DNA from: Escherichia coli
GTDB taxonomy: Bacteria > Pseudomonadota > Gammaproteobacteria > Enterobacterales > Enterobacteriaceae
Reading direction: 5' to 3' (one strand)
NCBI RefSeq assembly: GCF_003018255.1
Contig: NZ_CP027440.1
Length of the DNA stretch: 64,000 bases
Part shown: positions 34,401 to 40,400 of the stretch, one piece after another
Numbering within the stretch: position 1 is the first letter of the stretch
How the letters are laid out: each line of letters begins with the position of its first letter
Made by a program: the position numbers

Positions 34401-37400
34401 CGTAATTTGTGCCATGCATCATCCCCCTGTTCGACAGCTCTCACGTCGATCCCGGTACGCTGCAGGATAATGTCCGGTGTCATGCTGCCACCTTCTGCTC
34501 AGTGGCTTTCTGTTTCAGGAATCCAAGAGCTTTCACTGCTTCGGCCTGTGTCAGTTCTGACGATGCGCGAATGTCGCGGCGAAATATCTGGGAACAGAGC
34601 GGCAATAAGTCGTCATCCCATGTTTTGTCCAGGGCAATCAGCAGAGTGTTAATCTCCTGCATGGTTTCATCGTTAACCGGAGTGATGTCGCGTTCCGCCT
34701 GACGTTCTGCAGTGTATGCGGTATTTTCGACAATGCGCTCGGCTTCATCCTTGTCATAGATACCAGCAAATCCGAAGGCGAGACGGGCACACTGAATCAT
34801 GGCTTTATGCCGCAACATTCGTTTGGGATGCGACTGCCACGGTCCGGTGATTTCTCTGCCTTCGCGGGTTTTGAATGGTTCGCGGCGGCATTCATCCATC
34901 CATTCGGTAACGCAGATCGGATGATTACGGTCCTTGCGGTAAATCCGGCATGTACAGGATTCATTGTCCTGCTCAAAGTCCATGCCATCAAACTGCTGGT
35001 TTTCATTGATGATGCGGGACCAGCCATCAACGCCCACCACCGGAACGATGCCGTTCTGCTTATCAGGGAAGGCGTAAATTTCTTTCGTCCACGGATTAAG
35101 GCCGTACTGGTTGGCGACGATCAACAATGCGATGAACTGCGCATCGCTGGCATCACCTTTAAATGCCGTCTGGCGAAGAGTGGTGATCAGTTCCTGTGGG
35201 TCGACAGAATCCATGCCGACACGTTCAGCCAGCTTCCCTGCCAGCGTTGCGAGTGCTGTACTCATCCGTTTTATACCTCTGAATCAATATCAACCTGATG
35301 GTGAGCAATGGTTTCAACCATGTACCGGATGTGTTCTGCCATGCGCTCCTGAAACTCAACATCGTCATCAAACGCACGGGTAATGGCTTTTTTGCTGGCC
35401 CCGTGGCGTTGCAAATGATCGATACATAGCGATTCAAACAGGTGCTGGGGCAGGCCTTTTTCCATGTTGTCTGCCAGTTCTGCCTCTTTCTCTTCACAGG
35501 CGATCTGCTGGTAGTGACGCGCCCAGCTCTGAGCCTCAAGACGATCCTGAATGTAATAAGCGTTCATGGCTGAACTCCTGAAAATGGCTGTGAAAATATC
35601 GCCCGCGAAATGCCAGGCTGATTAGGAAAACAGGAAAGGGGATTAGTGATTCAGGCCGTTACCGCGTCCGTCGAGAAAAACTTCCACGAGCAAATCACGG
35701 GTATAAGTGCGCTCGATGCCGCGATGCAGATATAGCCGTCCGCGTAAATTAGCTGATGCAGTCCAGGTACCATCTTTGTGTTTGACCAGCATTCCTGGCA
35801 TGACCGCACCTCGATTAACGGTCTGCGTTCCATAATGTTGATGAACCATAAAAACTCCTGCCCGTAAGCTGGGCTGCTGAACATATAGAGACTTCTGCGC
35901 GTATTCAGGCGGTGGATGGCCGCCGGTTGTCATAACTAAGCCGCCTCGTTGAAGCGACTGAGGTATGAGGTGTTGAGTTGATTTCAGCTGGTCACACCGA
36001 CGTTCACGCGTCCGTTTCACCCCTCGCACTCCCCGGAGCCTGCCGAAATTCAAGCTGCGGATCTAAGCGGTCATCGCAACGGTGAATCAGGCGGTTGCCG
36101 TATCGTTGTGTTGTTGCGACATGGTAATAATAGCTATTGCTATTGGTGGTATCAATACTTATTGCTATTGATTGATGTGTTTTGATATTAACTGTTTGAT
36201 AGCAAAAAGAATTAATTTTGTGACTTGCATCGCATAGCGATAACTGAAGGGAGGTTGTGGTGGTTTTTCGAACGGTTTGTGTGATGAGGGGAGGGGACAA
36301 AAGAAAACCCGGCACGGTGGCCGGGCTAGATCTTAAAGTATTTATCTTTTAGAGATGTAGATGCAAAATTTTTTGCCTTTGAAAATTTTTTGTCATCAGA
36401 AGAGCTTATGAACTCATCTTTTTTGTAGGGAACCGCTAATGCTGCATCACGTCTGCGAGGCAGCTTACTTACTTCCTCGCACTTTTTCATGATCAGTTAT
36501 CCTTTAATAACCTATACAGTTTTGTAGGGGTACATCCTGAGGATATTGTTAAGTTCGTAGCACGCCTTTTCCGCCCACCATCGTATAAACGAAAACCAGT
36601 AGTAGACGAATTTTCTGCGTCAAAAACTATAGACAGTATAACGTCCCCAGACTTTTTTTGCCATTCATATGTGCCGTTAGTTGGTTTTGTCATCTGTAGA
36701 CGCCAGTCAAGAACGCCATCACTTATAGCTGAGAGATCGTTTAGTACGTCTAGTACGGATTGATATCTTTCATTTGGATCTACATGAATGCATTTGTTTA
36801 CTATTGTTATCAATTTTTTATGTATGTGGGAAGGATACTCTTTTAATGGATAGGAGCCATTAATTATCGACTCTCTGAGTTGTTCAATCGTTCTAAATGC
36901 AGATCTTTCTCTTTCAAAATTATCATATCCAACACACATTCTATATATGGTTAATCCTGCCTGATATATGTCATATGTGAAATTATAATCATTTGTTGAT
37001 AAAGAAAAATATTCCGGTGGCACATGAAAATGATATCCAAACTCAGGCGCAGCTCTCGATTCCTCATTGACTAACTGAGACAATCCAAAGTCAGATAGCA
37101 TGGCCTCATTTCTGTTTGATATCATGATGTTATTAGGTTTTATATCAAAATGCATAAGACCTTTTGAGTGTATATGATAAAGCCCACTTAAAAATTGAAT
37201 AGAATACCGTATTATCTCCCTGCTCGTAAGATTAATCTTTTTTATTAATTGGTTTAGCGAACCATTATGATAAAATGGCATGGCTATATAGATATTGCTC
37301 TCACATTGAGCAGCATACTGAACTTGCACAATATTTGGATGTGCATGTTTATAGAGAAGCCTTGCTTCATTAAAGTAGTCGTCGTGGTTAGTGTTTTCTT

Positions 37401-40400
37401 TTTTTTCTATTTCTTTAATCACCAAGTCATGAGCTAGGTGTCTGTCATGAGCCAGATATACTTTTGAAAAACAACCCTGTTCTTCTAGATCACGAATCCA
37501 TTCGAATGCTACATCAGCTCTTTTGTATGGAGTCAGCATCCCCTTACCTCCGCAGATAGTGCAGCCAAAACAGCTTCATTTGTTTCAGTTGTAAAACCAG
37601 AATTATCGATTCCATTTATATTACGGTGTGACTTCAATATTTCTTTATACTCGATCTCTGTTAGGTTCAATGATGACTTCATACCAGATTTTCTAATGGT
37701 GTAATATCTTCTTACATCACTGCTTGAAAATGCTTCTTGAATAACAGCTTCTATATAAAGGCGGTCAATGCTAAGATTATCAGAGTTTGATTCAGTAACG
37801 CGTATAGCAGCTAATTCAACATTATATAAATTAAGAATGTCGAGGATGTTATTTCGCACATACTTTAATTTTTCTGGTGTGTCTAAGGTCGAAGGTATTT
37901 TAATAACATCAACACATTTGAGTGCAGACTCATCAGTGCAATATACAACAAAAGATGTAACTTTGGGCGCCGCCCTAACACCTAGTATTCTCATTTTTTA
38001 TATCCCATTTTAGAATCAGGCTGCGTTTCTGCAGCCTCTCTCATCACCCAAATGTCTAATCAGGCTATTATTGATTATCCATGTTTCCTGTATGTTTGCG
38101 GCATGCTCCCAATAACTTTCCCGAAGATAAACACCCGGTTCATCTCGTCTTTCTCGATTGGGTCCCACGGTGAGTAGCTCTTGTTATCAGAGATAACCAG
38201 CAGTTTATCCTTCATCATTTGCAGGCGCTTAACATGGGCTGTGTCGTCATACAGAAACGCATAGATACCATCACCGTCGAAAGATTTAACAGTGATATCA
38301 ACGAACAGAAGATCACCTGGTTCGATCGTTCCTGACATGCTGTCACCGCGTACGTTAATGATGCGGATATTTTCTGCCTTCCTGCCATCGAACATGTGAC
38401 GAGCATCGTCAAACGAGTACTCAACCGAGCGTAGAACTTCTACAAACTCACGGTTGATGACTCCCGGCCCGGCACTCACTTCTATATCAAGAACGTCAAT
38501 CTTGAAGTATTTGGGATGGTTGGCAGCAGGCTTCCCTGATTGTTGACCGTCATTTCTCATCGGGCCTATGCCTGATGAGAGCCACTCTGTTCGAACACCC
38601 AATGCATTAGCTATTTCAACAATTTTTGTTGAGCCGCGTGCGTTGCCGCTTGTCAGTCTCCAGATTGTGGGTTGAGCTACGCCAGACGCCTTTGCAAGAG
38701 CGCCTTGAGACATTCCAGATTGTTCCATCGCTAGGTTTAAGCGATCAGCAAGAGTTTCTTTTTTCATAAGTTTTAATTTATACGCTTGCGTATTGATGGT
38801 CAAAACACGTTTTGCTATTGATTGGGTTAATACGCATTGCTATTATCCATTCATTGTAATACCAATAGGAATTGATAATGACAAATCAAACCATTCAACT
38901 CGCAATCAGTATTACAGGTAGCCAAAAACGACTGGCAGATCTATGCGGTGTAGCCCAGCCCACTGTTTGGCGTTGGCTACACGGTGGGGGAATTGATGCC
39001 CGCTATGTAATGAAAATTGTCTCAGCCACTGGTGGAAAGATTAAACCAGCAGATATTCGTCCCGACCTTGCACCATTGTTTAACGCGAGTAATTCTGCCG
39101 CCTAAACTGCGGCGTTAACTGATAAGGCAATGATTATGCAACCACTTACATACCAACAGACTAGCGGATTTAGCCCGACTGCGGTGATAAATCGTTCTCA
39201 AATAAAACAGGTGCCAGGCCACGAAAAAATCCGTGATGCCGTTCGCGCCTGGTCGGCTGCAGATAATCAGGATGTTGTTGCCGCACTCATTGTGAATGAG
39301 TATCGGGAGCAGGGCGGCGGCACCATCGATTTCCCTGATGATGTCAGCCGTGCACGCCAGAAGCTGTTCCGCTTCCTCGATAACAAATTCGATTCTGAAA
39401 AATACCGAAATAACGTGCGTGAACTGACCCCGGCAATTCTGGCGGTACTACCGCTGGAATATCGCGGCCACCTGGTTGAGCAGGATAGCTTCATGGCTCG
39501 GCTGGCTGAAATGGAAAAGGAACTCTGTGAGGCAAAGCAGGCGGTCATTCTCAACGCACCACGCCACCAGAAACTGAAGGAGATGAGTGAAGGCATTGTG
39601 TCGATGTTTCGAGTGGACCCGGATCTGGCTGGTCCATTGATGGCGATGGTCACCACCATGCTGGGGGCAATATGACAGGTTCAAAAATGGCGAAAGTCGG
39701 TCTGCGGGAACAGAACCGACTTTCAGGTGCAAATCGTAACACACTCATTGCGGGAGGAATTATGGCAAACACTGCTGAGATATTCAATTTTCCAGTGCCG
39801 GATGCGGCACAAAAGGAGCCGCGCGTGGCAGATCTCGATGATGGTTATACGCGCATTGCAAATGAGTTGCTGGAAGCTGTGATGCTGGCCGGATTAACAC
39901 AGCACCAGCTTCTGGTCTTCCTGGCTGTCATGCGCAAAACATATGGCTTTAATAAAAAACTGGATTGGGTGAGCAACGAGCAACTGTCCGGATTGACCGG
40001 GATATTACCGCACAAGTGTTCTGCTGCAAAAAGTGTTCTGGTAAAGCGTGGGATTTTGATTCAGAGCGGGCGGAATATCGGTATTAATAATGTGGTCAGT
40101 GAATGGTCAACATTACCCGAATCAGGTAAGAAAAATAAAGTTTACCTGAAAGAGGTAAATTTACCTGAATCAGGTAAGAAAAGTTTACCCAAATCAGGTA
40201 AAGGCGTTTACCCGAATCAGGTAAACACAAAAGACAAACTAACAAAAGACAATATAAAACCTTTTTCGTCCGAGAATTCTGGCGAATCCTCTGACCAACC
40301 AGAAAACGATCTTCCTGTGGTGAAACCAGATGCTGCAATTCAGAGCGGCAGCAAGTGGGGGACAGCAGAAGACCTGACCGCCGCAGAGTGGATGTTTGAC

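What the first reader, a model, noticed from the sequence alone, without database searches (positions are those of the whole stretch)
36125..38877. Operator-like repeat sets bracket cI plus the kinase operon, giving a lambda-style OL ... tIMM ... cI ... OR architecture
The motif TTGCTATTGATTG and its core ATTGCTATT occur in both the cI-cro intergenic region (38810..38845) and about 2.6 kb away at 36131..36173. Perfect palindromes ATACGCTTGCGTAT and CAAAACACGTTTTG sit between cI and cro, and ATCGCATAGCGAT lies near the left set. A 7-bp stem-loop (38018..38037) lies between cI and the first operon gene. Repeated motifs at both sites are consistent with operators for one repressor, which would place the kinase operon inside the immunity region.
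Basis: partly seen in the sequence, partly recalled or inferred. Interest (0 to 1): 0.45.

Follow-up and report, generated by a model that had tools for sequence, protein, structure and literature searches.

The report
Repressor operators bracket prophage kinase cassette

Summary
The window carries an E. coli lambdoid prophage.

The functional unit is a 16-bp pseudo-palindrome, AATA-S-S-N-NN-N-S-S-TATT. Three copies sit 25 bp apart between cI and cro (OR3, OR2, OR1). Two sit 25 bp apart at 36129-36169 (OL1, OL2), with a weaker conserved third at 36198-36213. OR1/OR2 and OL1/OL2 overlap the -10 and -35 boxes of PR and PL in mirror-image geometry.

Comparative evidence:
- Six phages with the same cI/cro keep both operator sets but carry different cargo.
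- Phage 933W has the same kinase cassette with different operators.
- The hetero-immune PhiR47_2 swaps exactly the 36121-36214 block together with CI residues 1-46, OR and cro.
- Salmonella BTP1 and Klebsiella RAH1, whose CI N-terminal domains are about 75% identical, keep the 3+2 sites while the spacers diverge.

The terminator that plays lambda's tIMM role is at 36306-36327, not the 38018 hairpin. ATCGCATAGCGAT is not specific to this immunity type.

This is the lambda rexAB / 933W stk / BTP1 bstA architecture: a new member of a known kind, of low interest. Repressor binding and co-transcription are inferred, not shown.

The parts
36121..36214 (-). Immunity-specific OL/PL block: the leftward promoter and its operators
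   Evidence: This is the only stretch of 36040-36330 that differs from the hetero-immune phage PhiR47_2; both flanks are near-identical. It is conserved in the six same-immunity relatives.
36127..36155 (-). PL promoter: -35 TTGATA (36155..36150), 17-nt spacer, -10 TATTAT (36132..36127)
   Evidence: The promoter scan scores it 10 of 12 matches. Its geometry mirrors PR.
36129..36144 (.). OL1, AATAGCTATTGCTATT; overlaps the PL -10 box by 4 bp
   Evidence: Best non-training hit in 64 kb for a PWM trained on the OR sites only. Conserved in BTP1 and RAH1.
36154..36169 (.). OL2, AATACTTATTGCTATT; 25 bp from OL1, overlaps the PL -35 box by 2 bp
   Evidence: Second-best non-training hit for the OR-trained PWM. 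The same 25-bp pair is present in BTP1 (5551/5576) and RAH1 (5481/5506).
36198..36213 (.). Candidate OL3, GATAGCAAAAAGAATT; weak match, 44 bp from OL2
   Evidence: PWM score is only 7.95. The block TTGATAGCAAAA(A/T)GAATT is nevertheless conserved in BTP1 and RAH1 within diverged DNA, and it ends exactly at the edge of the immunity-specific block.
36229..36241 (.). ATCGCATAGCGAT, a 5-3-5 inverted repeat; not part of the operator set
   Evidence: Retained unchanged in hetero-immune PhiR47_2. No PWM match. No matching repeat in the BTP1 OL-region sequence printed (read by eye).
36306..36327 (-). Intrinsic terminator closing the cI-cargo operon (tIMM equivalent; annotated tM in 933W)
   Evidence: The terminator scan finds 8 pairs, 6 of them G-C, followed by UUUUCUUUUG. 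Fold energy z = -3.5. Shared by all cargo variants and by 933W.
36326..36490 (-). 54-aa ORF, last gene of the cassette
   Evidence: ORF list. Annotated as a hypothetical protein in 933W. No Pfam or PADLOC hit.
36493..37539 (-). stk, a eukaryote-like protein kinase of 348 aa
   Evidence: Pfam Pkinase, E = 1e-46. PADLOC mad6 and PD-T4-6. The DNA is 97% identical to 933W stk.
37533..37994 (-). 153-aa ORF, first gene of the cassette
   Evidence: ORF list. The 933W homologue is annotated 'RuvC-like Holliday junction resolvase'. No Pfam hit.
38018..38037 (-). Hairpin AGGCUGC-N6-GCAGCCU in the 80-nt cI-cargo spacer; not a canonical terminator
   Evidence: It folds but is followed by GAUUCUAAAAUGG and was not called by the terminator scan. 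It lies inside the 933W-derived DNA, 36300-38057. The spacers in relatives differ.
38075..38767 (-). cI repressor, 230 aa: 434-like HTH domain plus S24 self-cleaving domain
   Evidence: Pfam HTH_3 and Peptidase_S24. PDB matches to 434 repressor and UmuD. Ala99-Gly100, Ser143 and Lys180 are present.
38775..38803 (-). PRM promoter: -35 TTGACC (38803..38798), 17-nt spacer, -10 TAAATT (38780..38775); the cI ATG lies 7 nt after the -10 box with no Shine-Dalgarno, so the mRNA is probably leaderless
   Evidence: Promoter scan, 9 of 12 matches. Conserved in BTP1 and RAH1.
38779..38794 (.). OR3, TATACGCTTGCGTATT; overlaps the PRM -10 box and spacer
   Evidence: PWM. Conserved in BTP1 and RAH1.
38804..38819 (.). 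OR2, AACACGTTTTGCTATT; abuts the PRM -35 box and overlaps the PR -35 box by 2 bp
   Evidence: PWM. Identical in BTP1 and RAH1.
38829..38844 (.). OR1, AATACGCATTGCTATT; between the PR -35 and -10 boxes, overlaps the -10 box by 4 bp
   Evidence: PWM. Conserved in BTP1 and RAH1.
38818..38846 (+). PR promoter: TTGATT, 17-nt spacer, TATTAT
   Evidence: Promoter scan, 9 of 12 matches with an upstream TG.
38858..38873 (.). Possible fourth site, AATACCAATAGGAATT; 29 bp right of OR1, over the cro Shine-Dalgarno
   Evidence: Not used in training, yet sixth-best hit in 64 kb. Invariant in seven phages, with variation on both sides of it. RAH1 has a counterpart at the same offset. The conservation could be due to the Shine-Dalgarno alone.
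38878..39105 (+). cro, YdaS-type, 75 aa
   Evidence: Pfam YdaS_toxin, E = 1e-14. 69% identical to BTP1 Cro.
39136..39675 (+). YdaT-type protein in the cII position
   Evidence: Pfam YdaT_toxin, E = 3e-29. CP-933P YdaT acts as a CII analogue (PMC8630535, PMC9986795).

Best explanation
The region is the immunity region of an E. coli lambdoid prophage.

Proposed mechanism:
- CI is a 434-like HTH domain joined to a LexA/S24 self-cleaving domain. CI dimers bind 16-bp pseudo-palindromic operators, consensus AATA(C/G)(G/C)N-NN-N(C/G)(G/C)TATT, usually flanked by Y and R.
- At OR, three sites 25 bp apart control the divergent promoters. OR1 and OR2 occlude PR. OR2 abuts the PRM -35 box, the position from which lambda CI activates PRM. 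OR3 overlaps the PRM -10 box, which would allow autorepression.
- At OL, about 2.7 kb away, OL1 and OL2 occlude PL in the mirror-image register. A weaker conserved third site lies 44 bp further on.
- In the lysogen, PRM would transcribe a probably leaderless cI message that continues through an 80-nt spacer into orf153-stk-orf54 and stops at the intrinsic terminator at 36306-36327. This keeps read-through out of the PL operon (kil, gam, bet, exo).
- The kinase cassette is a swappable accessory/defence module in the same slot as lambda rexAB. Here it was imported from a 933W-like phage into a different immunity type.

Shown by sequence and comparison: the sites, their register with the promoters, their linkage to the CI DNA-binding domain, the cassette boundaries and the terminator.

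Inferred: CI and Cro binding, PRM activation, co-transcription in this phage, any OL-OR looping, and the defence role of Stk.
For: 1. Motifs. The strings are confined to the two regions, share more than chance allows, and form the top repeat family.
2. Cross-validation. A PWM built from the OR sites alone ranks OL1 and OL2 as the best non-training hits in 64 kb on both strands. A PWM built from OL alone ranks 38858, OR1 and OR2 as the best non-training hits.
3. Geometry. PR (TTGATT-17-TATTAT) and PL (TTGATA-17-TATTAT) are both called by the scan. In both, operator 1 overlaps the -10 box by 4 bp and operator 2 overlaps the -35 box by 2 bp. PRM TTGACC abuts OR2.
4. Mosaic relatives. PhiR30_1, 4C10, Perceval, PhiR68_2, 1W and PhiR70_1 share 35600-36325 and 38076-39200 at 95-97% identity but hold five different cargo sets in between. 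933W shares only 36300-38057, the cargo, and has different operators.
5. Variation pattern. Most differences among the close relatives fall in the spacers that flank the 16-bp sites.
6. Specificity swap. PhiR47_2 has identical flanks. It has a different 94-bp block in place of 36121-36214, a different OR and cro, and CI residues 1-46 differ while the rest of CI is identical. Its OL and OR share their own different motif.
7. Phylogenetic footprint. BTP1 CI is identical to the window CI across the HTH (residues 18-58). Both BTP1 and RAH1 have three OR sites at 25-bp spacing plus two OL sites at 25 bp, with diverged spacers.
8. Terminator.
9. Literature. In 933W the kinase is cotranscribed with cI (PMC3564112, citing Tyler 2004). 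BTP1 cI-bstA is one operon from a single transcription start site (PMC7067206). The cI-N interval is a mosaic hotspot that holds rexAB in lambda (PMC8585504).
Against: - No binding or transcript data exist for this phage; every functional step is inferred.
- OL3 scores poorly (7.95) and its 44-bp spacing breaks the 25-bp rule.
- 4C10 and 1W carry a C-to-T change inside OL1, and PhiR30_1 carries single changes inside OL2 and OR2. The sites therefore tolerate some change.
- The hairpin at 38018-38037 could attenuate read-through from cI into the cassette.
- A cassette-internal promoter cannot be excluded; the scan lists several weak 9-of-12 matches inside the cassette, at chance frequency.
Confidence: 0.88

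Rival explanations
1. The operator sets are real, but the kinase cassette is an independent moron with its own promoter. The 38018 hairpin then stops most PRM transcription, so stk expression is not tied to the immunity circuit.
For: - A stable hairpin lies in the 80-nt cI-cargo spacer.
- Perceval has an even stronger hairpin followed by a T-run after cI.
- Weak promoter-like matches occur within the cassette.
Against: - The hairpin has no U-tract and was not called as a terminator.
- No good sigma-70 match lies in 37995-38075, and the cassette-internal matches occur at chance frequency.
- The same cassette in 933W is reported to be cotranscribed with cI (PMC3564112).
- BTP1 cI-bstA is a single-start operon (PMC7067206).
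Confidence: 0.1
2. The left motif set is a chance resemblance or a relic in AT-rich promoter DNA and is not bound by the repressor. PL would be controlled in some other way.
For: - The regions are AT-rich and the half-site is short.
- A 13-mer repeated somewhere in 64 kb is not rare in itself (my estimate, about 30 expected pairs genome-wide).
Against: - Restricted to the two gaps, the match was reached in 1 of 2000 shuffles.
- Cross-trained PWMs pick out the other set from 128,000 positions.
- The block is exchanged together with the CI DNA-binding domain.
- The block is conserved in Salmonella and Klebsiella phages.
Confidence: 0.02
3. The repeats are primarily sites for Cro (YdaS-type) or for the YdaT-type CII analogue rather than for CI.
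For: - Cro co-varies with CI and OR in all comparisons: BTP1 Cro is 69% identical, and cro is also swapped in PhiR47_2.
- A near-match to the CP-933P YdaT site lies over the cro ATG.
Against: - In lambda, and in CP-933P by footprinting (PMC8630535), the repressor and Cro share the same operators, so this refines the best explanation rather than competing with it.
- The YdaT consensus TTGATTN6AATCAA does not match the 16-bp sites, and its count in the window is at chance.
Confidence: 0.05

Closest known systems
Phage lambda immunity region (OL/PL - tIMM - rexB - rexA - cI - OR/PRM/PR - cro)
   Same: - The order of elements is the same.
- Three operators lie between divergent cI and cro and overlap PR and PRM.
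- A second operator set lies over PL, about 2.4-2.7 kb away.
- Accessory exclusion genes lie downstream of cI and end at an intrinsic terminator before OL.
- CI has an S24 self-cleaving domain, and the cI message is probably leaderless.
   Different: - The operator sequence is unrelated and 16 bp long rather than 17 bp, with strict 25-bp spacing.
- The CI DNA-binding domain is 434-like.
- Cro is YdaS-type and the cII position holds a YdaT-type protein.
- No N gene or nut sites are recognisable.
- The cargo is a kinase cassette, not rexAB.
Phage 933W immunity region (stk cotranscribed with cI; Tyler et al. 2004, as cited in PMC3564112)
   Same: The cargo cassette and its terminator are 97% identical (36300-38057 = NC_000924 9911-11666), in the same slot between cI and OL.
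   Different: - 933W has a different cI, cro, OR and OL. Its operators are 15 bp and its OL matches are TGAACCAATAGTTCG and AGAACTATTGGTACG.
- 933W has an extra DUF3024 gene next to cI.
- 933W has N and nutL.
Salmonella phage BTP1 cI-bstA immunity region (PMC7067206, PMC8585504)
   Same: - CI is identical across the HTH (residues 18-58 of the window CI) and 86% identical over its full length.
- Cro is 69% identical.
- It has the same operator half-sites, with three sites at OR and two at OL, all at 25-bp spacing.
- A defence gene lies in the same slot and is transcribed from the cI promoter.
   Different: - BTP1 is a P22-like podovirus of another genus.
- Its cargo is bstA.
- It has N and a P22-type nutL, and a conventional CII.
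- I found no published operator description for BTP1 in the searched library.
CP-933P cryptic prophage PaaR2 / YdaS / YdaT region (PMC8630535, PMC9986795)
   Same: - Cro is YdaS-type and the CII analogue is YdaT-type.
- Cargo (the paaA2-parE2 toxin-antitoxin pair) lies downstream of the repressor.
- A PL/OL copy of the OR repeats lies beyond the cargo.
   Different: - The repressor PaaR2 is unrelated to CI.
- The repeats have the consensus GTTTAGTAA, with four sites in OR.

Membership tests
Lambdoid immunity region (CI/Cro bistable switch with OR and OL) | Divergent repressor and cro genes separated by a short gap that holds multiple similar pseudo-palindromic sites overlapping PR and PRM | tested here: met
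   cI 38075-38767 (-) and cro 38878-39105 (+). Three 16-bp sites at 38779, 38804 and 38829. PR and PRM are called in register with them.
Lambdoid immunity region (CI/Cro bistable switch with OR and OL) | A second set of the same sites overlapping a leftward early promoter | tested here: met
   OL1 and OL2 lie over PL. The set is linked to the CI DNA-binding domain in the PhiR47_2 swap.
Lambdoid immunity region (CI/Cro bistable switch with OR and OL) | Repressor with a LexA-type self-cleaving domain: Ala-Gly site and Ser/Lys dyad | tested here: met
   Peptidase_S24, E = 1e-18. Matches to UmuD'. A99-G100, S143 and K180 are conserved.
Lambdoid immunity region (CI/Cro bistable switch with OR and OL) | CI and Cro physically bind the sites with opposite order of preference | not testable with these tools
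   Needs EMSA or footprinting.
Lambdoid immunity region (CI/Cro bistable switch with OR and OL) | N/nut antitermination of the PL and PR transcripts | tested here: not met
   - There is no N ORF: the 270-nt PL leader is non-coding by its substitution pattern.
- There is no Rfam hit.
- Only about 30 nt separate cro and ydaT.
- This feature is not universal among lambdoid phages (from memory, HK022 lacks N), so its absence does not exclude membership.
PRM-driven accessory/defence slot (lambda rexAB, 933W stk, BTP1 bstA type) | Non-essential genes immediately downstream of cI on the same strand, ending at a terminator before OL | tested here: met
   orf153-stk-orf54 at 36326-37994, then the terminator at 36306-36327.
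PRM-driven accessory/defence slot (lambda rexAB, 933W stk, BTP1 bstA type) | Slot content varies among phages that share the flanks (mosaic hotspot) | tested here: met
   Six different cargo sets counting the window's own, with breakpoints at 36325 and 38061-38077. Several match PADLOC families.
PRM-driven accessory/defence slot (lambda rexAB, 933W stk, BTP1 bstA type) | Co-transcription with cI in the lysogen | not testable with these tools
   Reported for 933W (PMC3564112) and BTP1 (PMC7067206). Not measured for this prophage.
933W Stk abortive-infection kinase | Sequence identity to 933W stk and its two flanking ORFs | tested here: met
   97% DNA identity over 1758 bp.
933W Stk abortive-infection kinase | Exclusion of a superinfecting phage such as HK97 | not testable with these tools
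   Known only for 933W (PMC3681748, PMC3564112).

The most novel reading that the evidence does not exclude
This immunity family (window, Perceval, 4C10, PhiR phages) may run a lambda-type CI/Cro switch without N/nut. Its PL is followed by a conserved 270-nt non-coding leader, and it has two non-canonical repressor sites: OL3 at 44 bp from OL2, and a site over the cro Shine-Dalgarno 29 bp beyond OR1. If those extra sites are bound, and the leader carries an uncharacterised processive-antitermination or attenuation element, early-gene control here would differ mechanistically from lambda, 933W and BTP1 despite identical operators.
Probability: 0.12. Interest if true: 0.45.

Novelty: new member of a known kind. 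Interest (0 to 1): 0.2.

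Why it matters
- It gives a sequence-level operator map (half-site AATA-S-S, 16-bp sites, 25-bp spacing) for an immunity specificity shared by E. coli, Salmonella (BTP1) and Klebsiella phages. I found no published operator description for it in the library I searched.
- It shows the 933W Stk kinase cassette transplanted into a second immunity type, present in 28 of 5426 complete E. coli genomes.
- It shows the slot between the cI stop codon and a shared terminator acting as a plug-in site for defence cassettes: a PD-T4-6/mad6-like kinase, PDC-M63, PDC-M11 and an MqsA-like protein.
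- None of this changes the current understanding of lambdoid regulation. It is useful for annotation and for predicting which prophages are homo-immune.

Tried and rejected
1. The 13-mer as the operator unit. Rejected because its GATTG tail varies in close relatives at both sites.
2. ATCGCATAGCGAT as part of OL. Rejected because it is kept in hetero-immune PhiR47_2, has no counterpart in the BTP1 OL sequence (by eye) and gives no PWM match.
3. CAAAACACGTTTTG as a separate operator. It is the left half of OR2 plus bases next to the PRM -35 box; I found no independent support.
4. A strict 25-bp OL3 at 36179-36194. The sequence does not match.
5. The 38018 hairpin as tIMM. It has no U-tract and is specific to the cassette.
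6. The 136-aa ORF 35643-36053 with an Arg-rich N-terminus as an N-like protein. Rejected because changes upstream of codon 69 are spread over all codon positions and include a 1-nt indel, whereas 9 of 10 changes in the 68-aa kil part are at third positions.
7. A structured put-like RNA in the PL leader. The fold is no better than shuffles (z = +0.65), there is no Rfam hit and no similarity to the HK022 early region.
8. CP-933P-type YdaT sites. The count is at chance.
9. Reading Tyler 2004 and Bullwinkle 2011 directly. Neither paper is held.

Full report
**What is in the window.**
Window 31-44 kb is a lambdoid prophage early region. The genes, in order:
- int (31056-32198, -), then exo, bet, gam and a 68-aa kil-like gene (35643-35849, -);
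- a three-gene cassette: orf54 (36326-36490), the protein kinase stk (36493-37539; Pfam Pkinase 1e-46) and orf153 (37533-37994), all on the minus strand;
- cI (38075-38767, -; HTH_3 plus Peptidase_S24);
- cro (38878-39105, +; YdaS-type) and a YdaT-type gene in the cII position (39136-39675);
- O, P and ren.

The junction between the kinase cassette and cI occurs at 100% identity in 28 of 5426 complete E. coli genomes.

**Checking the observation.**
- TTGCTATTGATTG occurs twice in 64 kb, at 36162 and 38812.
- ATTGCTATT occurs three times, always inside the two regions.
- A 13-nt shared word between the two gaps was reached in 1 of 2000 shuffles.
- The top repeat family in 36000-38900 is a 49-nt direct repeat, 36121-36169 versus 38796-38844.
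- The 'perfect palindromes' are really 6-2-6, 6-2-6 and 5-3-5 inverted repeats.
- The 38018-38037 hairpin folds.

**The operator unit.**
Reading the two regions against each other gives 16-bp sites of the form AATA-S-S-N-NN-N-S-S-TATT.

| Site | Coordinates | Sequence |
|---|---|---|
| OR3 | 38779-38794 | TATACGCTTGCGTATT |
| OR2 | 38804-38819 | AACACGTTTTGCTATT |
| OR1 | 38829-38844 | AATACGCATTGCTATT |
| OL1 | 36129-36144 | AATAGCTATTGCTATT |
| OL2 | 36154-36169 | AATACTTATTGCTATT |

Every neighbouring pair is exactly 25 bp apart.

I chose these sites by eye, so I cross-validated them with position weight matrices (PWMs). A PWM made from the three OR sites alone ranks OL1 and OL2 as the best non-training hits in the whole window on both strands. 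A PWM made from the two OL sites ranks 38858, OR1 and OR2 as the best. The site at 38858-38873 (AATACCAATAGGAATT) was never used for training. It lies over the cro Shine-Dalgarno.

**Register with the promoters.**
The consensus scan calls three promoters:
- PR: TTGATT-17-TATTAT, 38818-38846 (+);
- PL: TTGATA-17-TATTAT, 36155-36127 (-);
- PRM: TTGACC-17-TAAATT, 38803-38775 (-).

OR1 and OL1 each overlap their -10 box by 4 bp. OR2 and OL2 each overlap their -35 box by 2 bp. OR2 abuts the PRM -35 box and OR3 covers the PRM -10 box. This is the lambda logic. The cI ATG follows the PRM -10 box by 7 nt with no Shine-Dalgarno, so a leaderless message is likely (inference).

**Natural experiments.**
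1. *Same immunity, different cargo.* PhiR30_1, Lambda_4C10, Perceval, PhiR68_2, 1W and PhiR70_1 match the window at 95-97% over 35600-36325 and 38076-39200. In between they carry five different gene sets.
2. *Same cargo, different immunity.* 933W matches only 36300-38057. It has other operators at both OR (annotated) and OL.
3. *Variation pattern.* Among the seven same-immunity sequences, most variable columns fall in the spacers on either side of the 16-bp sites.
4. *Specificity swap.* PhiR47_2 has near-identical DNA on both sides of OL, but window 36121-36214 is replaced by an unrelated 94-bp block.
   - At the same time CI residues 1-46 (HTH helices), OR and cro are replaced, while CI from residue 47 on is identical.
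   - The new OL and OR share their own motif (AACAACCAT-type words).
   - ATCGCATAGCGAT sits in the shared flank, so it is not an operator of this CI.
5. *Distant relatives.* Salmonella BTP1 CI is identical to the window CI across the HTH (residues 18-58), and Klebsiella RAH1 is 73% identical over the N-terminal domain. Both have three PWM sites at 25-bp spacing at OR and two at OL. In the alignments the operators are conserved and the spacers are not.
   - A third OL block, TTGATAGCAAAA(A/T)GAATT (window 36196-36213), is also conserved and ends at the edge of the swapped block.
   - I therefore list it as a candidate OL3, despite its weak PWM score and 44-bp offset.

**The cassette and its terminator.**
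- The right breakpoint in every relative lies within 15 bp of the cI stop codon. The left breakpoint lies at the 5' foot of the terminator.
- The terminator at 36306-36327 (-) has 8 pairs followed by UUUUCUUUUG. All cargo variants share it, and 933W annotates it as tM. It is the tIMM equivalent, and it would keep PRM transcription out of the PL operon.
- The 38018 hairpin has no U-tract and belongs to the 933W-derived DNA. Other cassettes have different spacers, some with hairpins. Its role, whether stability, processing or partial attenuation, is open.
- Published work supports co-transcription in close analogues. The 933W kinase is cotranscribed with cI and aborts HK97 infection (PMC3564112, PMC3681748). 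BTP1 cI-bstA is one operon from a single start site (PMC7067206). The cI-N interval is a recognised mosaic hotspot (PMC8585504).
- Cargo in the relatives matches PADLOC families: PDC-M63A/B, PDC-M11A/B and an MqsA-like protein. Stk itself matches mad6 and PD-T4-6.

**Comparison and novelty.**
- The layout is that of lambda (OL-tIMM-rexBA-cI-OR) and of 933W.
- The YdaS/YdaT right arm resembles CP-933P, where PaaR2 and YdaS were footprinted on OR and a matching PL/OL was found beyond the cargo (PMC8630535).
- The operator sequence differs from lambda, 434, 933W and CP-933P. It is shared with BTP1, for which I found no published operator map in the searched library.
- The region is a new member of a known kind.

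**Limits.**
No binding, transcript or phenotype data exist for this prophage. CI and Cro occupancy, PRM activation, looping over about 2.7 kb, read-through of the hairpin and Stk-mediated exclusion are all inferences from homology and geometry.

Noticed in passing
window 35850-36120 (minus strand), and 39105-39136: I found no N gene or nut site. PL is followed by a conserved, non-coding leader of about 270 nt before the 68-aa kil-like gene. The Arg-rich 'N-terminal extension' of ORF 35643-36053 is non-coding by its substitution pattern and a 1-nt indel. The leader does not fold better than shuffles, has no Rfam hit and shows no similarity to the HK022 early region. Only about 30 nt separate cro from ydaT, which leaves no room for nutR/tR1. 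How early transcripts get past terminators is unexplained.
   Followed up: partly
window 38858-38873: A sixth strong PWM match (AATACCAATAGGAATT) lies 29 bp beyond OR1, over the cro Shine-Dalgarno and the likely PR +1 region. It is invariant in seven phages, with variable bases immediately on both sides, and has a counterpart in Klebsiella RAH1. It could be a fourth operator or simply a conserved ribosome-binding site.
   Followed up: partly
window 45725-45742: A perfect match to the CP-933P YdaT recognition repeat (TTGATTTTGGGAAATCAA) lies in the intergenic gap 45693-45906. It is followed by the hairpin GTCACCGGAG...CTCCGGTGAC. A one-mismatch copy overlaps the cro start at 38872-38889. The overall count is at chance.
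   Followed up: no
L002-L007, L012 (slot equivalent to window 36326-38075): The slot between the cI stop codon and the shared terminator holds a different candidate defence or toxin-antitoxin cassette in nearly every relative: PDC-M63A/B (PhiR30_1), PDC-M11A/B (4C10, 1W; a cassette of similar gene sizes is annotated GevA/GevT in PhiR47_2), an MqsA-like protein (PhiR70_1), and uncharacterised pairs (Perceval, PhiR68_2).
   Followed up: partly
window 36229-36241: The inverted repeat ATCGCATAGCGAT and the surrounding 36215-36258 are conserved in both immunity types of this phage group but not in 933W, and no matching repeat is visible in the BTP1 OL sequence. Function unknown. It may only be part of the conserved linker used for cassette exchange.
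   Followed up: partly
window 41702-42088 and 42343-43869: An EmrE-like small multidrug-resistance transporter gene and a YbcK-type large serine recombinase sit inside the prophage to the right of ren. The same is true of Perceval and the PhiR phages.
   Followed up: no
window 36140; L003/L006 equivalents: Lambda_4C10 and 1W carry a C-to-T change in the conserved GCTATT arm of OL1. PhiR30_1 has single changes in OL2 and OR2. These are natural operator variants that might alter PL repression or spontaneous induction.
   Followed up: no
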